Shown here piece by piece: positions 7,236 to 15,227 of a stretch of DNA of 64,000 nucleotides (position 1 is its first letter; each line of letters starts with the position of its first letter). The position numbers were made by a program, and so were the translations under genes. Source of the DNA: Bacteroidota bacterium (GTDB lineage Bacteria > Bacteroidota > Bacteroidia > Palsa-948); contig JACQAL010000042.1 in the NCBI GenBank assembly GCA_016195025.1, positions 16,925 through 80,924 on the forward strand, read 5' to 3'. The notes under the pieces were generated by a model, which ran no database searches, was not told the origin of the DNA, and saw only the letters and a program-made list of their open reading frames with translations.

Positions 7236-7817
7236 TTATTTTAATCTGTTGTGCTGAAGTTCTTTATTATTTTTGAATTCCAAAACTTCTTTTGTCTGTC
7301 TTTTCGAAATATCCACGCGTTTGTTTTCTTCAACTCCTTCTACCAGCAAATCTTTTCCGTACACGAATTTTTCACGCAAAGAATCGGAAGGAACAATTCT
7401 GTCCGTAAGAAAAATGGCTTCCTTGGGGCAGGCATCTTCGCAGTCACCGCAAAAAATGCAGCGGAGCATATTTATTTCATAAACACTTGCATATTTTTCT
7501 TCGCGGAATAATTTTTCTTCTCCGGGTTTTCTTTCCGCGGAAGTCATCGTGATTGCTTCGGCAGGACAGGCAACTGCGCATAACCCGCAGGCAGTACATC
7601 TCTCAGCTCCGTTCTCATCGCGTTTCAAAACATGCATTCCTCTATAGACAGGAGCAAATTCTCTTTTTACTTCAGGATATTTTATCGTTGCTTTTTTTCT
7701 GAAGAAGTGTTTTATAGTAATTAGCATGCCGTTGAGAATGGCAGGGAGATATGCTCTTTCAATCAGAGTCATTTCCTTATTTGAAACCTGTTTGCTTCTA
7801 TTTGTCAGTGATTGCAT
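7236..7817 (-). CDS. nuoI: NADH-quinone oxidoreductase subunit I (2x[4Fe-4S] ferredoxin)
   Basis: Two CxxCxxCxxxCP motifs (CTACGLCAVACP, CIFCGDCEDACP). Confidence 0.95.
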   Translation of the reverse strand: MQSLTNRSKQVSNKEMTLIERAYLPAILNGMLITIKHFFRKKATIKYPEVKREFAPVYRGMHVLKRDENGAERCTACGLCAVACPAEAITMTSAERKPGEEKLFREEKYASVYEINMLRCIFCGDCEDACPKEAIFLTDRIVPSDSLREKFVYGKDLLVEGVEENKRVDISKRQTKEVLEFKNNKELQHNRLK

Positions 7818-7821
7818 TTCG

Positions 7822-8853
7822 TTAATTTATTTTTCCAGTCAGCCACATTACAATTCCTGTTATCGCGATATTCAAAATTGCCAGCGGAATCAATCCTTTC
7901 CATCCGAGATTCATCAGTTGGTCATAGCGGAAACGCGGAAGCGTCCAGCGAACCCACATAAATAAAAAGATGAAGAAAAATATTTTCGAGAAAAGAAAAA
8001 ATGTTCCGAGAAGTACGAGCGTATTTGGCTCGTGAATAAATCTTCCGATGAAAGGCATATTGAATCCGCCAAAATAAAGTGTTGCGATTATCGCGGAAGA
8101 AATAAACATGTTGATGTATTCCGCAAAAAGATAAAAACCAAGTTTCATCGAAGAATATTCGGTGTGATAACCTCCAACCAATTCGGTTTCGCATTCTGGT
8201 AAATCGAAGGGTGCGCGGTTGGTTTCCGCAAATGCACAAATGATAAAAATTAAAAATCCGAGCGGCTGGTAAATAATATTCCAATGGCCTCCGTGCTGTT
8301 GCGCTGCGATTTCGCCAATACTCAACGTTCCTGTGGTCATGACCAATGCGATGATGGCAAGACCCATTCCAAGTTCATAAGAAATCATTTGTGAGGAAGC
8401 GCGCAATGCGCCAAGCAGCGCGAACTTATTATTGGAAGCCCATCCTCCAATCATGATTCCGTAAACTCCAACAGAAGTTACTCCAAGCAAATACAAAATT
8501 CCAATGTTTACATCCGCCACCTGTAAAGAATATTCTCCTCCGCCAATATGCAGCGAACTTCCCCATGGAATCACAGTGCCTGTCATGAGGCAAGTGAGCA
8601 TGGAAAGCGAAGGACCGAGAATGAAAAGAAATTTATTTGAAACACCGGGAATGATTTCTTCCTTCATGAACATTTTTAATCCATCGGCAACGGGTTGAAG
8701 AATTCCAAAAGGTCCCGCACGATTAGGTCCCAGCCTATCCTGCAGGAATGCGGCAATTTTTCTTTCCGCGTAAGTAGAATACATCGCTATGAAAAGCGTA
8801 ATTCCAAAGACGATTAGAACCAAAATGGATTTATATATAATTAATGACATCAT
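7822..8853 (-). CDS. nuoH: NADH-quinone oxidoreductase subunit H
   Basis: NuoH/ND1-like membrane subunit. The ORF track extends to 8895, but a start at the internal Met (MMSLIIY, ~8850-8853) removes the overlap with the upstream toxin gene. Confidence 0.9.
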   Translation of the reverse strand: MMSLIIYKSILVLIVFGITLFIAMYSTYAERKIAAFLQDRLGPNRAGPFGILQPVADGLKMFMKEEIIPGVSNKFLFILGPSLSMLTCLMTGTVIPWGSSLHIGGGEYSLQVADVNIGILYLLGVTSVGVYGIMIGGWASNNKFALLGALRASSQMISYELGMGLAIIALVMTTGTLSIGEIAAQQHGGHWNIIYQPLGFLIFIICAFAETNRAPFDLPECETELVGGYHTEYSSMKLGFYLFAEYINMFISSAIIATLYFGGFNMPFIGRFIHEPNTLVLLGTFFLFSKIFFFIFLFMWVRWTLPRFRYDQLMNLGWKGLIPLAILNIAITGIVMWLTGKIN

Positions 8854-9149
8854 TATTTCAATCTGAGTTTTTTGGGATTCTGTCTTCCATCCCAAACAGA
8901 CAATATTTCTAAAACATCCGGCTTCAATTCATAAAACAATAAATAATTTCCGCAAACTGTCACTCTAACATTGTCTTCGTCAGTTGCTCTTCCTAAGTAA
9001 TTATATTTTGCTATGTATCTCACTGTTTCTCTGAATTGTTTTGATAATTTCCTGCTATAGTTTTTATTTCCATTGTGTATAAACCAATATTCAAGAATTG
9101 AACGTCTTTCATGTTTTGCTTTGACTGACCATATTATTCGCTTAGCCAT
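8853..9149 (-). CDS. type II toxin-antitoxin system RelE/ParE-family toxin
   Basis: 98 aa. Pattern typical of RelE/ParE (..ILEYW..NG..Y..KL..F.ETV..I..YP.LG...DEDNVRV...GNYLLFYEL..DVLEILSVWDGRQNP). Overlaps the upstream small gene in classic antitoxin-toxin arrangement. Embedded between nuoG and nuoH. Confidence 0.8.
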   Translation of the reverse strand: MAKRIIWSVKAKHERRSILEYWFIHNGNKNYSRKLSKQFRETVRYIAKYNYLGRATDEDNVRVTVCGNYLLFYELKPDVLEILSVWDGRQNPKKLRLK

Positions 9150-9367
9150 TTGTCTTCGTCTTTTTCCAGTTGCTCATTCGTGATGTATTCCCCGTTTTTG
9201 ATTTGTTGTTTTCCCTTTCGAATTGCTTTGCGCTGTTCGGCAGACAACCTGTAAATATTTTTGCCAGCGCTTGAGTCAAGAATTTTCTTAATTGCTTTAA
9301 GAAATTCTTCGTCATTGATTTCAGAAATCTTATCAATGACCTGATGTTTTAATTGTGCTGTTGTCAT
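9134..9367 (-). CDS. putative addiction-module antitoxin (partner of RelE/ParE)
   Basis: 77 aa acidic/basic small protein immediately upstream of and overlapping the RelE/ParE toxin by 16 nt. ATGA overlap with the preceding gene. Confidence 0.6.
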   Translation of the reverse strand: MTTAQLKHQVIDKISEINDEEFLKAIKKILDSSAGKNIYRLSAEQRKAIRKGKQQIKNGEYITNEQLEKDEDKWLSE

Positions 9368-9657
9368 TTTTTCTTTTTTAATTTTCTAACTTCTAAATTT
9401 ATTTTTGCCCACTTAAAAGTGTGTTTAATTTTTGACTTCGGATGAATCCAATGCTTGTGATCTGGAGGTGTCCAACTTGCTCCAAATCCTCCATATGATT
9501 TTCCTCCGGCATATTTTGATTTTCCATCACTATTATTTCGCCACTGAATAAGAGTTCCATCTGTATCATAATACCAATGATGTCCTTTATGTTTCGCAAT
9601 TCCCTGGCAATTTCCTTTTCTCAAAACAAAAGCATATTTCGAATTGCATTTTCTCAT
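9364..9657 (-). CDS. hypothetical small basic protein with possible HNH/colicin-DNase-like motif
   Basis: ~97 aa, rich in K/G/H/W/Y. Contains HH..YDTDG....WTPPDHKHWIH, reminiscent of the HH..YDMDN..TPKRHIDIH core of colicin E9-type DNases (inference only). Translationally coupled between nuoG and the antitoxin. Confidence 0.4.
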   Translation of the reverse strand: MRKCNSKYAFVLRKGNCQGIAKHKGHHWYYDTDGTLIQWRNNSDGKSKYAGGKSYGGFGASWTPPDHKHWIHPKSKIKHTFKWAKINLEVRKLKKKK

Positions 9658-9658
9658 T

Positions 9659-10678
9659 CTATGCATTATTCGGATTCATTGCTCCTTCTCCCAGTTCCAT
9701 TTTATTTGCTTCTAATCTTTTTTGCTGCTTCGAAACATCTGCTTTCAGATTCTGCAATGCGTTTGCAGTTTCATAATGATTGGCAGAGATTACCGAATGC
9801 CTGTCAATGTGCGAAGGCGCTTCAATTGTCCAGTCGCTGGTTTTCTTGTGGTCGTATCGGCAAGAATTACAAATCCATTCTGTTACTTCTCCGTATTTAT
9901 CTTTTCTTGCAGTCACGCGAAGCACATCTTCACCTTTATACCAAAGGCGAACTTTCCCGCAACACTTATCACAATTGCGGTGGGCGTCCACAGGTTTTGT
10001 AAACCAAACTCTTGATTTGAAACGGAAAGTTTTATCCGTGAGCGCACCCACAGGACAAACATCAATCATGTTTCCGCTCATTTCATTTTCCACCGCGCTT
10101 TGTATATAGGTAGAAATTTCCGAAACATCTCCGCGATTGATTACGCCATGAACTCTGCCCGGACATAATTGTTCCGCCACTTTCACGCAGCGATAACAGA
10201 GAATGCAGCGCGTCATGTGTAATTTTACTTTATCGCCAATGTCAATTTTTTCAAACTCTCTGCGCTTGAACTCATAGCGGGTTTTCATTTTTCCGTGCTC
10301 GTAGCCGAGATTTTGCAAATCACATTCACCCGCCTGGTCGCAAATCGGGCAGTCGAGCGGATGATTTATCAAAAGAAATTCCACCACTCCCGCGCGCGCT
10401 TCAATCACTTCGGGCGAAGTAATATTCTGCACTTCCATTCCGTCCATTACCGTTTGCCTGCAGGAGGGAACAAGTTTCGGCATCGGGCGCGGATCTTTCT
10501 CCGAACCTTTTGAAACTTTCACTAAACACGTTCTGCAATAGCCACCGCTTGTCGCAAGTTTTGTATAGTAGCACATCGCGGGCGGAACAATTTCTCCTCC
10601 TATCATGCGCGCGGCATTCAGGATCGTTGTTCCTTCCGGTACTTCAATTGTTTTTCCGTCTATGGTGACTTTTGCCAT
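9659..10678 (-). CDS. nuoG: NADH-quinone oxidoreductase subunit G, short form (2Fe-2S/4Fe-4S N-terminal module only)
   Basis: 339 aa. N-terminal 2Fe-2S ferredoxin cysteine pattern plus HPLDCPICDQAGEC and CILCYRCV clusters. No molybdopterin-like C-terminal domain. Confidence 0.9.
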   Translation of the reverse strand: MAKVTIDGKTIEVPEGTTILNAARMIGGEIVPPAMCYYTKLATSGGYCRTCLVKVSKGSEKDPRPMPKLVPSCRQTVMDGMEVQNITSPEVIEARAGVVEFLLINHPLDCPICDQAGECDLQNLGYEHGKMKTRYEFKRREFEKIDIGDKVKLHMTRCILCYRCVKVAEQLCPGRVHGVINRGDVSEISTYIQSAVENEMSGNMIDVCPVGALTDKTFRFKSRVWFTKPVDAHRNCDKCCGKVRLWYKGEDVLRVTARKDKYGEVTEWICNSCRYDHKKTSDWTIEAPSHIDRHSVISANHYETANALQNLKADVSKQQKRLEANKMELGEGAMNPNNA

Positions 10679-10800
10679 TTACTTTTTTTCTTTGGGCGTG
10701 TCCCTCGAAGACTCGGGTCGGGCTTTCTGCTTCAATCTTTTTGCGAAACGCAAAAAGGATTTCCACTTCAATCCCTCACGCAAAACTCATTTCATATATA

Positions 10801-11070
10801 TTATTTTTCCCAAAACAATAATACTCCTTCTGTGAATGAACCTCCCAAACCATACGCTGTTCTTTCGTATCTACTTGCACTTTCTGTTCCCATTGAAGCA
10901 AATCCTGTATTAATGCCTTGAACTTGTTTTAATTTCCATCCATCATCATTCATTTTTTGAATGTGGATATTAAGTCTTTCAGTTTCATTTACATGAATTC
11001 TTGGAGATAAAGAGCCATCAATTGACTTTAAATTAAGAAGACTTTCTTCCGATGTTTTAATATCCCTCAT
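10801..11070 (-). CDS. hypothetical protein (AT-rich accessory cassette, gene 2)
   Basis: 89 aa. ATGA-overlaps the upstream 158-aa ORF. Sits inside the nuo operon between nuoF and nuoG. No recognisable domain. Confidence 0.45.
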   Translation of the reverse strand: MRDIKTSEESLLNLKSIDGSLSPRIHVNETERLNIHIQKMNDDGWKLKQVQGINTGFASMGTESASRYERTAYGLGGSFTEGVLLFWEK

Positions 11071-11543
11071 CGTATCAAAAATGCTATGACCAGCCCATTC
11101 ATTTTTTTCCCACCACTGTCAAATTTTTTAAATAGTTTATTTTCTTCACTAGAAAATTCTTTTTGCTTAAATAGAAAATGTTTTTTCTTTTCTTTTAATA
11201 ATTCTAACAACATTATATTCCTTTTCTTTTTATGATAACTATTGTCATTAGGATAATGATATTCCATAGCATTTATCTTGCTCAAAATATCATACAATTT
11301 GATTTGCCACTTTATGAACCTATCAAATAACTTTTTATCTTCAACAAAAAATTCTTTTTGCCTAGATAATATATGCTGTTCCATTTCTTTTATTAATTCC
11401 TCTAATCTCAATATGGAATTTCCTTTCTCTTTCTTTACTTCATTATCTTTTTCTTTTTCTTTGATTATATTATCTAAAGTACTTAAACTGAGTATTTGTC
11501 TTTCTTCAAGTTCAAAGGAGAAAAATGTAACAGTGTTTTTCAT
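11067..11543 (-). CDS. hypothetical protein with internal repeat (AT-rich accessory cassette, gene 1)
   Basis: 158 aa, very AT-rich coding DNA compared with flanking nuo genes. Two internal repeats (..QKEFFVEDKKLFDRFIKW.. / ..QKEFSSEENKLFKKFD..). Confidence 0.45.
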   Translation of the reverse strand: MKNTVTFFSFELEERQILSLSTLDNIIKEKEKDNEVKKEKGNSILRLEELIKEMEQHILSRQKEFFVEDKKLFDRFIKWQIKLYDILSKINAMEYHYPNDNSYHKKKRNIMLLELLKEKKKHFLFKQKEFSSEENKLFKKFDSGGKKMNGLVIAFLIR

Positions 11544-11553
11544 TTCTTGTTAT

Positions 11554-12906
11554 TTAACTATTTGTGACTTCTAATTGATTCACTCTGTAATAATGTTTCA
11601 CATCTTTCACATTCTTTCCGTTTCTAACATACTCTTCAAACTCACTTCTGAAATGTCTGATTGCTGCGGCAACCGGCCATGCAGCGGCTTCGCCCAGCGG
11701 ACAAATTGTTTTGCCTTCAATTTTTCCCTGTATGTCCCAAAGCAAATCAATATCTGCTATGGTTGCGTGTCCATCTAAAAATTTATGCAAAACTTTTTCC
11801 ATCCATCCTGTTCCTTCGCGGCAAGGCGAACATTGTCCGCAGGATTCGTGATGATAGAAGCGCGTGAAGTTCCAGAGATTTTTTACTACGCTGGTGTCTT
11901 CGTCCATCACAATGAATCCGCCAGAGCCAAGCATGGTGCCAGTAATAAATCCCCCATCACTTAAACTTTCGTAAGACATTAAGCGCGGTTCGCCTTTTGC
12001 AGTTTTCAAAATTAATTCTGTGGGAAGGATTGGTACGGATGAACCTCCTGCTACAACTGCTTTCAATTTTTTCCCGTTGCGAATTCCTCCACAATATTTA
12101 TCCGAATAAATAAATTCTTCAACAGGAACTCCGAGTTCAATTTCGTAAACACCGGGTTTATTAATATGTCCGCCTGCGGAAATTAATTTTGTGCCGGTAG
12201 ATTTTCCTATTCCGATTTTCGCGTATTCATCTCCCGTCATATTTATAATCGGAACAACAGCGGCAATTGTTTCCACATTATTTACTACGGTCGGTCTGTC
12301 CCACACACCTTTCACAGCGGGAAACGGAGGTTTGATTCTTGGATTTCCTCTTTTTCCTTCGAGCGATTCAATCAATCCGGTTTCTTCTCCGCAGATATAC
12401 GCTCCCGCCCCAACATGCATGTACACATCCAGATAGTAACCGCTTCCTAAAATATTTTTTCCCAGAAGATTTGCATCGTACGCTTCCTGAATTGCTTTTT
12501 CAAGAATGTGATACACGTACATCATTTCGCCACGTATATATATGTAGGAAACATTTGCGCCAAGCGCGAACGAAGAAATAATCATCCCCTCTACGAGAAT
12601 GTGCGGCTTCATCTCCATTAAAAATCTATCCTTGAAAGTGCCAGGCTCCGATTCATCGGCATTGCAAACCAAATGGCGGGGAACTCCGGGAGGTTTTGCG
12701 ATGAAACTCCATTTCATTCCCGTTGGAAATCCCGCTCCGCCTCTTCCGCGTAAGCCGGATTTTTTTACTTCCTCCACAATTTCTTCGGGCTTCATCTTCA
12801 GCGCTTTTTCCAAAGTCGCATAGCCGCCATTTGCTTTATAGCCGGAGAGAGATTGAATTCCGGGTTTGTCTAAATCGTTTATGAGTAACTGAGCCACAGA
12901 TTTCAC
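11554..12906 (-). CDS. nuoF: NADH-quinone oxidoreductase subunit F (51 kDa, FMN/NADH-binding)
   Basis: 450 aa. GxGxxG-rich NADH/FMN region (GRGGAGFPTG) and C-terminal 4Fe-4S cysteine motif (ESCGQCSPCREG). Apparent GTG start. Confidence 0.95.
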   Translation of the reverse strand: MKSVAQLLINDLDKPGIQSLSGYKANGGYATLEKALKMKPEEIVEEVKKSGLRGRGGAGFPTGMKWSFIAKPPGVPRHLVCNADESEPGTFKDRFLMEMKPHILVEGMIISSFALGANVSYIYIRGEMMYVYHILEKAIQEAYDANLLGKNILGSGYYLDVYMHVGAGAYICGEETGLIESLEGKRGNPRIKPPFPAVKGVWDRPTVVNNVETIAAVVPIINMTGDEYAKIGIGKSTGTKLISAGGHINKPGVYEIELGVPVEEFIYSDKYCGGIRNGKKLKAVVAGGSSVPILPTELILKTAKGEPRLMSYESLSDGGFITGTMLGSGGFIVMDEDTSVVKNLWNFTRFYHHESCGQCSPCREGTGWMEKVLHKFLDGHATIADIDLLWDIQGKIEGKTICPLGEAAAWPVAAAIRHFRSEFEEYVRNGKNVKDVKHYYRVNQLEVTNS

Positions 12907-12919
12907 AGATTTACACTGA

Positions 12920-13336
12920 TTATAAAATAACTCGTTTGAACTTCAAAGAATTTTCTCCGAAGTTTATTAGTAATCCAAGTTTCAATTTAGAAACTGCAAG
13001 ATAGTTTATGACTTGACGATAATGGTCTTCAAGCACTCCTTCCTGCGCTTTAACTTCTAAAATAATTTTTTCGTCAATTACGAAATCGGCAAAATAATAA
13101 TGAGGTAAAATTGTTCCTTTATATTCTACTTCATACTTCCTTTCTCTTTCGAAGGAGATATTTTTATTTCTCAATTCAAATTCAATCGCGTCCTTATAGA
13201 CAATCTCGGATAATCCCCTCCCCAATACTTTATGAACTTCCATGCACAAGCCAATGATCTCAAAAGAATCTTCTTGCATGGGATATTTATCCTTTGCGTA
13301 GTAAATTTCCTGTGCGTCCTGTAATATCAATTCCAT
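12920..13336 (-). CDS. GxxExxY family protein (PD-(D/E)XK-like)
   Basis: 138 aa with the diagnostic G-L-S-E-I-V-Y (GxxExxY) motif. Inserted between nuoE and nuoF. Confidence 0.8.
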   Translation of the reverse strand: MELILQDAQEIYYAKDKYPMQEDSFEIIGLCMEVHKVLGRGLSEIVYKDAIEFELRNKNISFERERKYEVEYKGTILPHYYFADFVIDEKIILEVKAQEGVLEDHYRQVINYLAVSKLKLGLLINFGENSLKFKRVIL

Positions 13337-13371: not shown

Positions 13372-13926
13372 CTATTGTTTTATCTCCGAATGATTTTTAA
13401 TTCTTTCTTTTCTATAGTGAGAAATCTGTTCGCCTTTGTTTTTATAATCGTCCAGAATCTTTTCGCACTTTTCAAAACTTAAATTTTCGTGATACGTTTC
13501 GCCAATCTGCATCATCGGTGCTGTTCCGCAGGAAGCCAGGCATTCAACAGTCTTCAGCGTGAACATTCCGTCAGCAGTTGTTTGCCCTTCTTTTATATTT
13601 AATTTTTTCTCGATGTGCTTTACTAAATCTTCTGCGCCCATCAGCCAGCAGGGACCGGTTCTGCAAACCTCAATCACGCATTTGCCAACAGGTTTTAAAT
13701 TGAACATGGAATAAAATGAAGCTACTTCGTAAACTTCTATCGGTTGAATTTTCAGAATCGAAGCCACATAATCCATCACCGGTGCGCTGAGCCAGCCGTC
13801 AAATTCCGCCTGCGCGAGATGGAGAATCGGAAGTATCGCGGACTTCTGTTTGCCTTCGGGATAGCGCCTCATCAACTTGTTGCAGAGTGCAAGCGCTTCG
13901 TCAGAGAATCTTATTTGTTTTGCCAC
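13372..13926 (-). CDS. nuoE: NADH-quinone oxidoreductase subunit E (24 kDa, 2Fe-2S)
   Basis: 184 aa. Thioredoxin-like 2Fe-2S cysteines (CRTGPC ... CLASCGTAP). First gene of the nuo cluster in this window. Confidence 0.93.
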   Translation of the reverse strand: MAKQIRFSDEALALCNKLMRRYPEGKQKSAILPILHLAQAEFDGWLSAPVMDYVASILKIQPIEVYEVASFYSMFNLKPVGKCVIEVCRTGPCWLMGAEDLVKHIEKKLNIKEGQTTADGMFTLKTVECLASCGTAPMMQIGETYHENLSFEKCEKILDDYKNKGEQISHYRKERIKNHSEIKQ

Positions 13927-14726: not shown

Positions 14727-15227
14727 ATGGAACTAACAATAATTCAAAAGAAGATATTTGAAGTACGAGGGCATCGTGTTATGCTTGACCGCCATTTAGG
14801 TGAATTGTATGATGTTCCTACTAAATCCATAAATCTTGCTGTAAAAAGGAATAAGAATAGATTCCCTTCGGATTTCATGTTTCAACTCACCAAAAAAGAA
14901 TATGATTCTTTAAGGTTTCAATTTGAAACCTTAAAGAGAGGAACACATTCTAAATTTTTACCGTATGTTTTTACCGAGCACGGTGTGGCAATGTTGTCAT
15001 CAGTTTTGAGAAGCAAGAAAGCAGTTGAAGTAAATATTTCAATTATGCGTGCCTTTATTCTGCTCAGGCAATTAGCCATCAGCCATAAAGAACTTTTGAG
15101 AAAGATTAAGGAGTTAGAAAAGAAATATGATAAAAACTTTGCAGAGATTTATCAAGCGTTAAACTTATTACTTGACCCGCCACATCCTAAAAGAAAAAAG
15201 GTTGGCTATAAACATTACGATGAATAA
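14727..15227 (+). CDS. ORF6N (KilA-N-like) domain protein
   Basis: 166 aa. N-terminal ..IRGQRVMLD..LA.LY.V.TK.LN.AVKRN..RFP.DFMF.L.. pattern typical of ORF6N. Stop overlaps the ileS start. Confidence 0.8.
   Translation: MELTIIQKKIFEVRGHRVMLDRHLGELYDVPTKSINLAVKRNKNRFPSDFMFQLTKKEYDSLRFQFETLKRGTHSKFLPYVFTEHGVAMLSSVLRSKKAVEVNISIMRAFILLRQLAISHKELLRKIKELEKKYDKNFAEIYQALNLLLDPPHPKRKKVGYKHYDE

What the first reader, a model, noticed from the sequence alone, without database searches (positions are those of the whole stretch)
10801..11543. AT-rich two-gene cassette of unknown function inside nuo (158 aa with internal duplication + 89 aa)
The coding DNA of 11067-11543 is visibly far more AT-rich (long runs such as ttttttcttttcttttaataattctaacaacattatattcc) than nuoF/nuoG on either side, which argues for foreign origin. 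The two ORFs overlap by ATGA. The first has two copies of a ~25-aa motif (QKEF..E.KKLF.+F). Neither matches a family I recognise, so this is a candidate novel selfish or defence-type pair.
Basis: seen in the sequence. Interest (0 to 1): 0.55.

Follow-up and report, generated by a model that had tools for sequence, protein, structure and literature searches.

The report
One foreign gene split by frameshift
The supposed two-gene cassette between nuoF and nuoG is one AT-rich, horizontally acquired gene of a very rare unknown family, cut into two reading frames by a one-base frameshift, so it is an oddity and not a new selfish or defence pair.

Summary
ORFs of 158 aa (11067-11543) and 89 aa (10801-11070) lie on the minus strand between nuoF and nuoG and overlap by ATGA. 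They sit in the lowest-GC stretch of the whole 64-kb window, and the 158-aa ORF contains a significant internal duplication.

The interpretation as a gene pair does not hold. An exhaustive search of 1.84 billion representative proteins found one relative, P0003, a single 250-aa protein. Its residues 1-151 match the 158-aa ORF. Its residues 160-249 match the 89-aa ORF at 49% identity (E 2e-27). Adding one base in the frame-overlap zone (11070-11118) gives a 247-aa ORF colinear with P0003 from start to stop. The most likely site is the A7 run at 11102-11108.

So this is one gene split by a frameshift. It is foreign:
- It is absent from all 80 related nuoF loci examined.
- Its GC3 is 0.19-0.25 against 0.36-0.46 in host genes.
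- Its only homologue lies in a mobile/defence island.

It sits in a spacer that is an insertion hotspot in relatives (19 of 70 carry cargo). Its function is unknown. No toxin-antitoxin or defence signature was found, and nothing supports programmed frameshifting. Interest is low to moderate.

The parts
10801..11543 (-). The whole split gene. With one added base it reads as a single 247-aa ORF.
   Evidence: The fused translation is colinear with P0003 (250 aa) at 41% identity. The first 10 residues are identical and the C-termini coincide at ...WEK.
11067..11543 (-). N-terminal fragment ('ORF158'): a Lys/Glu-rich helical region with a tandem internal repeat. It starts 10 nt after the nuoF stop.
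   Evidence: It matches P0003 residues 1-151 (phmmer E 3.1e-7 against 1.84e9 proteins; BLASTP 2e-13). The AF2 model is all-helical but of low confidence (pLDDT 49.8).
10801..11070 (-). C-terminal fragment ('ORF89'): a small domain ending ...SFTEGVLLFWEK. Its reading frame is open upstream to 11118.
   Evidence: It matches P0003 residues 160-249 at 49% identity, E 2e-27. The stop-to-stop frame spans 10804-11118. The corresponding part of P0003 hits phrog_15841 at E 6e-8.
11070..11118 (-). Zone where both frames are open. The -1 frame change must lie here.
   Evidence: Adding one base anywhere in this zone gives an open fused ORF. Global scores against P0003 range from 377 to 394, so the exact site cannot be placed.
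11102..11108 (-). A7 homopolymer (T7 on the + strand), the most likely site of the one-base loss.
   Evidence: A7 to A8 gives ...FDSGGKKNEWAGHSIFDTMRDIK..., with the same 26-residue spacing as P0003 between the KLF and RDIK anchors.
11316..11447 (-). Internal repeat, copy 1 (residues 33-76).
   Evidence: DNA repeat D1 covers 11325-11399.
11121..11246 (-). Internal repeat, copy 2 (residues 100-141). In P0003 this copy runs on across the point where the window gene is broken.
   Evidence: The P0003 self-alignment scores 85, with 0 of 2000 shuffles reaching that, and extends to ...DRTKRDI.
10712..10786 (-). Flavo-1 RNA motif (Rfam RF01705), 14 nt after the gene's stop and 33 nt before the nuoG start. 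It is probably a separate repeat-type element.
   Evidence: 57.9 bits against a gathering score of 42, E 5.5e-10. It is absent from the 11 closest relatives' nuo loci and from L083.
11554..12906 (-). nuoF, the upstream flank.
   Evidence: Pfam Complex1_51K and NADH_4Fe-4S.
9659..10678 (-). nuoG, the downstream flank.
   Evidence: Pfam Fer2_4, NADH-G_4Fe-4S_3 and Fer4_Nqo3.

Best explanation
The feature is one protein-coding gene of about 247 codons from a very rare, undescribed family. The predicted architecture is a conserved N-terminal decapeptide MKNTVTFFSF, then a long Lys/Glu-rich helical region built from a tandem repeat of about 44-65 residues, then a small C-terminal domain ending SFTEGV.L.WEK.

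The gene was acquired horizontally. It lodged, co-oriented and promoterless, in the nuoF-nuoG spacer, which in this Bacteroidia lineage repeatedly takes up small accessory genes. It is transcribed passively with the nuoE-N operon (inferred).

A one-base deletion has since split it into a 158-aa and an 89-aa reading frame. The deletion most probably lies in an A8 run that is now A7 (11102-11108).

The most likely present state is a recently crippled passenger gene, either a young pseudogene or one that yields two fragments. It has no role in complex I and does not work as a toxin-antitoxin or defence pair.

Shown: the single-gene ancestry, the frame break, the foreign composition, the absence from relatives, and the hotspot. 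Inferred: co-transcription, the exact site of the indel, and loss of function. The biochemical function remains unknown.
For: Single-gene ancestry:
- P0003 is the only relative among 1.84e9 representative proteins and 5.8e9 clusters, and it covers both ORFs in one frame.
- The fused ORF is colinear with P0003 from start to stop, at 41% identity.
- The break falls inside repeat copy 2, which is continuous in P0003. This argues for fission of one gene and against fusion of two.
- The N-terminal 10 residues are identical despite synonymous DNA differences. The sequence is therefore a real coding sequence.

The frame break is probably real in the DNA:
- 57 other homopolymer runs (A/T of 7 nt or more, G/C of 6 nt or more) lie inside intact ORFs of at least 200 codons in the window.
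- Two independent Logan assemblies show the same A7.

Foreign origin:
- GC3 is 0.19-0.25 against 0.36-0.46 in host genes, and this is the lowest-GC stretch of the window.
- The gene is absent from 80 related nuoF loci.
- P0003 lies in a mobile/defence island.

Hotspot:
- 19 of 70 relatives carry a nuoF-nuoG insert of at least 300 bp. The cargo is diverse and all co-oriented with nuo: seven 23S_rRNA_IVP genes, MNT/HepT, TonB_C, UDG-like, ORF6N and others.

Co-transcription:
- No terminator-like site was found on the minus strand between nuoF and nuoG.
Against: - The family has only two members, so the polarity (fission or fusion) rests on the repeat argument and on colinearity, not on a phylogeny.
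- Apart from the single frame change, both parts are free of stops in AT-rich DNA. The break is therefore either very recent, tolerated, or compensated.
- The ATGA stop-start overlap would allow coupled translation of the second part.
- The sequencing platform is unknown to me, so a systematic homopolymer error shared by all three assemblies is not strictly excluded.
- There is no expression data.
Confidence: 0.66

Rival explanations
1. Functional gene fission. The two parts are both made, the second by translational coupling at ATGA, and they work as a two-subunit version of the ancestral protein.
For: Both frames are intact. The ATGA overlap exists. A Lys-to-Met change relative to P0003 creates the ATG exactly at the stop.
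Against: A TGA preceded by A automatically gives an ATG in the -1 frame, so the overlap is expected by chance in roughly one case in ten (my estimate from composition, not computed). The break lies inside a repeat unit and not between domains. The tail of the 158-aa ORF in its own frame (MNGLVIAFLIR) has no counterpart in P0003. The arrangement is not conserved elsewhere.
Confidence: 0.15
2. Programmed recoding. The full-length protein is restored either by transcriptional slippage that adds an A at the A7 run or by -1 ribosomal frameshifting.
For: Inserting one A in the mRNA at the A7 run gives exactly the fused frame. Disrupted genes restored by slippage at A/T runs are documented (PMC1088944).
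Against: The run is 7 nt, whereas the study analysed runs of 9 nt, the length at which selection against such runs appears in many genomes (PMC1088944). The window keeps A9 and T9 runs inside intact genes such as ileS. No X XXY YYZ heptamer is in phase, since the 0-frame reads GGG AAA AAA ATG. There is no stable structure downstream (z 0.08). The homologue has a plain single ORF.
Confidence: 0.08
3. Assembly or sequencing error at the homopolymer. The real gene is intact.
For: The correction needed is a single base, and a homopolymer lies in the overlap zone.
Against: 57 comparable homopolymers sit in intact long ORFs in the same window. Two Logan assemblies of separate runs give identical DNA, including the A7.
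Confidence: 0.08
4. One reading: a novel two-gene selfish or defence (toxin-antitoxin-like) cassette.
For: Two small overlapping ORFs of foreign composition. True TA pairs occupy neighbouring spacers of the same operon, such as the ParE pair at 8853-9367. The homologue lies in a defence-rich island.
Against: The homologue is one ORF. There are no toxin, antitoxin or PADLOC hits. The pair does not recur anywhere searched.
Confidence: 0.03

Closest known systems
P0003 (250-aa hypothetical protein, ENA ERZ27254241 contig k141_2130993; locus L083 10001-10753)
   Same: Full-length colinear homologue at 41% identity. It has the same N-terminal decapeptide, the same tandem repeat and the same C-terminal motif. 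Its GC is also lower than its surroundings.
   Different: It is a single uninterrupted ORF. It stands alone with its own 450-nt upstream region inside a mobile/defence island, not inside nuo, and has no Flavo-1 motif nearby.
phrog_15841 (phage protein family of unknown function)
   Same: The C-terminal domain of P0003 (residues 189-247) matches profile positions 63-124 of 132 at E 3.8e-7, or 6.1e-8 for the domain alone. ORF89 is 49% identical to that domain.
   Different: ORF89 and the fused window protein do not reach the profile themselves. The long coiled-coil N-terminal part has no counterpart. The PHROG family carries no functional annotation.
Small accessory genes lodged in nuo-operon spacers: GxxExxY/PDDEXK_3, 23S_rRNA_IVP four-helix-bundle proteins, and ParE or HepT/MNT toxin-antitoxin pairs
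   Same: Same lifestyle: short, AT-rich, co-oriented and tightly packed between conserved nuo genes, present in some relatives and absent in others.
   Different: There is no sequence relationship to any of them. This family is far rarer (two members known), and this copy is frame-broken.
Genes disrupted at A/T homopolymers ('authentic frameshifts', Baranov et al. 2005, PMC1088944)
   Same: Two overlapping ORFs whose fusion by one extra A matches a single-ORF homologue in another organism.
   Different: The run is only 7 nt, against the 9-nt runs analysed in that study, so restoration by slippage is doubtful.

Membership tests
Type II toxin-antitoxin pair | Two separate genes that co-occur as a pair in other genomes | tested here: not met
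   The only homologue encodes both parts in one ORF. No other occurrence was found in 5.8e9 protein clusters, JGI metagenome contigs, IMG/VR, plasmids or phages.
Type II toxin-antitoxin pair | A recognisable toxin fold and an antitoxin DNA-binding domain | tested here: not met
   No significant Pfam, NCBIfam or PADLOC hit for either ORF.
Known anti-phage defence systems (PADLOC-DB 2.0) | A match to a component model | tested here: not met
   No hit for either ORF or for the fused protein. P0003 gives only weak matches to coiled-coil segments of JetC (E 0.0012 and weaker).
Programmed -1 ribosomal frameshift | A slippery heptamer X XXY YYZ in phase in the overlap zone | tested here: not met
   The 0-frame reads GGT GGG AAA AAA ATG, so the A7 run is out of phase for tandem slippage (read directly from the sequence).
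Programmed -1 ribosomal frameshift | A stimulatory RNA structure downstream | tested here: not met
   The 82 nt downstream fold at -11.1 kcal/mol, z-score 0.08.
Programmed -1 ribosomal frameshift | The two-frame organisation is conserved in homologues | tested here: not met
   P0003 is a single ORF.
Transcriptional-slippage gene | An A or T run long enough for efficient slippage. The study cited analysed 9-nt runs (PMC1088944). | tested here: not met
   The run is 7 nt. The window tolerates 9-nt runs inside intact genes.
phrog_15841 | A significant match to the family profile | tested here: inconclusive
   The homologue's C-terminal domain matches at E 6.1e-8. The window's own sequence does not. 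The link is transitive, through 49% identity.
DUF4177 (PF13783). A lead from my memory of the motif pattern: helix ...GW, strand, Gly-rich loop, strand ...F+K/R. | A match to the Pfam model | tested here: not met
   No DUF4177 hit at E up to 10 for ORF89, the fused protein or the P0003 C-terminal domain.
Flavo-1 RNA (RF01705), the adjacent element | A score above the Rfam gathering threshold with a full-length model match | tested here: met
   57.9 bits against 42, model positions 1-76 of 76.
Integron gene cassette (ORF plus attC) | An attC site with R''/R' core boxes and an intI integrase nearby | not tested
   By eye only: the Flavo-1 arms show no RYYYAAC or GTTRRRY boxes. No search for intI was made. 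The other inserts in the same operon have no such hairpin.

The most novel reading that the evidence does not exclude
The gene is a live member of a new family of promoterless hitch-hiker cassettes that colonise spacers of the essential nuo operon by an unknown targeted mechanism. On this reading the adjacent Flavo-1 hairpin could serve as its recombination or RNA-processing site. The two-frame layout would then be functional, either through coupled translation or through low-level slippage at A7 giving a regulated ratio of short and full-length products.
Probability: 0.07. Interest if true: 0.6.

Novelty: new member of a known kind. Interest (0 to 1): 0.25.

Why it matters
For annotation, this locus should be called one frameshifted gene and not two hypothetical proteins. 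The case shows how a single remote homologue can overturn a 'gene pair' reading.

For biology, the gene adds one more type of cargo to a pattern seen in this lineage. Spacers of the nuoE-N operon in these uncultured Bacteroidia repeatedly hold small, AT-rich, co-oriented accessory genes. The window alone has three separate inserts, and 19 of 70 relatives have one between nuoF and nuoG.

If that pattern reflects a targeting mechanism or a safe-harbour effect of essential operons, it deserves study of its own. The split gene by itself gives no handle on an open question.

Tried and rejected
- **Small lipoproteins in relatives.** By eye, the C-terminus of ORF89 resembled small lipoproteins found in the same spacer of L050, L042 and L068 (...KGYK..FEKE). 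This is rejected: phmmer finds nothing and hhalign gives a probability of 0.3%.
- **DUF4177-like domain.** No Pfam support at E up to 10. It remains an untested fold-level lead.
- **Structure.** AF2 single-sequence models of both ORFs were poor (pLDDT 46.5 and 49.8). A Foldseek search of the ORF89 model against BFVD gave nothing at E of 0.001 or better.
- **More family members.** None were found by:
  - a profile search of 5.8e9 protein clusters;
  - JGI metagenome contigs, searched by peptide patterns and by a degenerate DNA pattern for FTEGV.L.WEK;
  - IMG/VR;
  - tblastn against plasmids and phages;
  - PDB sequences.
- **Paralogues.** None in the window or in the 80 related loci.
- **Insertion borders.** No convincing flanking direct or inverted repeats. 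The window's flanks and those of L083 show no similarity.
- **Placing the frameshift by alignment score.** Not resolvable.
- **Literature.** Searches on GxxExxY and IVP genes as operon hitch-hikers found nothing directly relevant.

Full report
**What is there.** On the minus strand the window carries a complex I operon in this order:

| Feature | Coordinates |
|---|---|
| nuoE | 13372-13926 |
| GxxExxY / PD-(D/E)XK gene | 12920-13336 |
| nuoF | 11554-12906 |
| the two ORFs of the finding | 11067-11543 and 10801-11070 |
| Flavo-1 RNA motif | 10712-10786 |
| nuoG | 9659-10678 |
| unknown 100-aa ORF plus an antitoxin/ParE pair | 8853-9666 |
| nuoH, nuoI and downstream genes | from 8895 downwards |

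**Check of the observation.**
- The AT-richness is real and is the most extreme in the window. GC is 0.23-0.26 in 10950-11550, against 0.41-0.50 in the flanking nuo genes. The window-wide minimum of 0.227 lies here, against a mean of 0.418 and sd of 0.052.
- The bias reaches third codon positions. GC3 is 0.25 and 0.19, against 0.36-0.46 in host genes.
- The internal duplication is significant and longer than described. Residues 33-76 align with residues 100-141 at score 95, above the maximum of 62 in 2000 shuffles. It is also visible in the DNA as 75 nt at 77% identity, spaced 195 nt apart.
- A 158-codon stop-free run is unusual for this composition. It arose in 3 of 2000 shuffles.

**What it is.**
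- Neither ORF matches Pfam, NCBIfam or PADLOC.
- Word-indexed searches of 5.8 billion protein clusters return only the ORFs themselves.
- An exhaustive phmmer search of 1.84 billion cluster representatives with the 158-aa ORF returned one other protein, P0003. It is 250 aa, with E 3.1e-7 and 36% identity over residues 1-149.
- P0003 residues 160-249 align with residues 2-89 of the 89-aa ORF at 49% identity, E 2e-27. Its residues 1-151 align with the 158-aa ORF.
- The frame of the 89-aa ORF is open for 16 codons upstream of its ATG, to 11118. Adding one base in this overlap zone gives a single 247-aa ORF.
- That ORF aligns with P0003 from the first residue (MKNTVTFFSF, 10 of 10 identical) to the last (…SFTEGVLLFWEK), at 41% identity. 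The spacing between the conserved KLF and RDIK anchors is the same 26 residues in both.
- P0003 has the same tandem repeat (score 85, reached by 0 of 2000 shuffles). Its second copy runs across the point where the window gene is broken. The single-ORF state is therefore ancestral, and the window carries a fission.
- The first ten codons differ synonymously between the two genes, so protein-level selection has acted on the family.

**Where the frame breaks, and whether it is real.**
- Alignment scores cannot place the site within 11070-11118; they range from 377 to 394.
- The A7 run at 11102-11108 is the obvious candidate, since A8 restores the frame.
- An assembly error is unlikely. 57 comparable homopolymer runs lie inside intact ORFs of at least 200 codons in the same window. 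Two Logan assemblies of separate runs (SRR12113409 and SRR12113410) give identical DNA through the site.
- Programmed recoding is not supported:
  - no in-phase slippery heptamer;
  - no downstream RNA structure (z 0.08);
  - a run of only 7 nt, whereas the study analysed 9-nt runs, the length at which selection against such runs appears in many genomes (PMC1088944);
  - a homologue with a plain single ORF.
- The ATGA overlap is weak evidence for coupling. A TGA preceded by A necessarily creates an ATG in the -1 frame.

**Origin and setting.**
- The gene is absent from all 80 related nuoF loci retrieved from GTDB species representatives. These are uncultured Bacteroidia with nuoF 71-92% identical to the window's.
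- P0003 lies on a 40.5-kb metagenomic contig among an IS66 transposase, a resolvase, a PtuA/PtuB-like (PDC-M01) pair, RadC, a methylase, DnaB_C and ParA. That is a mobile/defence island. There too the gene's GC is below its surroundings.
- No further relatives were found in any other collection.
- The nuoF-nuoG spacer is an insertion hotspot. Among 70 relatives in which both genes were located, most have spacers of about 2-150 nt, and 19 carry inserts of 339-1407 bp.
- The cargo in those inserts is diverse and always co-oriented with nuo. It comprises seven 23S_rRNA_IVP genes, MNT/HepT, TonB_C proteins, a UDG-like gene, an ORF6N gene, unknown secreted proteins and small lipoproteins.
- The window's insert starts 10 nt after the nuoF stop. 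No terminator-like site lies on the coding strand. Co-transcription with nuo is the natural inference.

**Function.**
- Nothing informative was found. The N-terminal two-thirds give only generic coiled-coil hits, to SMC, JetC, Rad50 and IpaB, all weak.
- The C-terminal domain of P0003 matches phrog_15841, a phage family of unknown function, at E 6e-8. The window's copy does not reach that profile on its own.
- AF2 models of the separate ORFs were of low confidence, and the fold search was empty.
- The pattern 'N-terminal strand, long helical insertion, helix ending in GW, strand, Gly-rich loop, strand' recalls DUF4177 from memory. Pfam does not support this.

**Verdict.** The feature is one horizontally acquired gene of a very rare unknown family, sitting as a passenger in a recurrent insertion site of the nuo operon and split by a single-base frameshift. 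The most likely state is a young pseudogene or crippled gene. A functional split, rescue by slippage and an assembly error remain minor alternatives. The surprise for a specialist is small. The broader pattern of accessory genes in nuo spacers is the more interesting lead.

Noticed in passing
window 10712-10786 (-); L001 1054-1120: This Flavo-1 RNA motif (RF01705) is the only Rfam hit above threshold in the window. Logan contig L001 has the identical 5' arm but a different, longer central hairpin and two changes in the 3' arm. L002 ends at the branch point. The element is therefore either multi-copy in this genome or polymorphic in the population. A published transcriptome study found Flavo-1 hits in both orientations and often outside transcribed regions (PMC9723704), which fits a REP-like or MITE-like repeat.
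   Followed up: partly
window 12920-13336 (-): A GxxExxY / PDDEXK_3 gene (TIGR04256, E 2.7e-38) is inserted between nuoE and nuoF. Homologues at 56-63% identity sit in the same spacer in L007, L012, L042 and L050.
   Followed up: partly
window 8853-9666 (-): The nuoG-nuoH spacer holds an AT-rich 100-aa ORF with no hit in any library (GC3 0.22), followed by a 77-aa putative antitoxin and a ParE-family toxin. All three overlap tightly. L012 has a ParE-like pair (38% identity) in the same spacer.
   Followed up: partly
L003-L082, nuoF-nuoG spacers (about locus positions 7300-8700): The spacer is an insertion hotspot in related Bacteroidia. 19 of 70 relatives carry inserts of 339-1407 bp, all co-oriented with nuo. 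The cargo includes seven 23S_rRNA_IVP genes, five unknown secreted proteins of about 280-300 aa, TonB_C, UDG-like, MNT/HepT and ORF6N. The nuoE-F, nuoG-H and nuoH-I spacers also carry inserts in some relatives.
   Followed up: partly
L005 7324-7455, L007 6329-6461, L008 7048-7148, L035 7327-7421, L039 7324-7417: Nine relatives have nuoF-nuoG spacers in the 94-133 nt range. The five examined here hold palindromic repeat-like sequences of at least three different kinds, none of them Flavo-1.
   Followed up: no
window 14727-15227 (+); L081 7466-8005: An ORF6N-domain gene lies just upstream of ileS in the window, and its end overlaps the longest ileS ORF call. A related ORF6N gene occupies the nuoF-nuoG spacer in Pedobacter fastidiosus (L081).
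   Followed up: no
L083 1250-3104: A PtuA/PtuB-like (PADLOC PDC-M01A/B, Septu-related) defence pair lies about 7 kb upstream of the intact homologue P0003, next to an IS66 transposase and a resolvase.
   Followed up: no
window 11554-11580 (-): The nuoF C-terminus in the window (…YYRVNQLEVTNS) differs from that of relatives (…YYRVNNLQPA or …NNLQEA) and is two codons longer. The insertion may have remodelled the last codons of nuoF.
   Followed up: no
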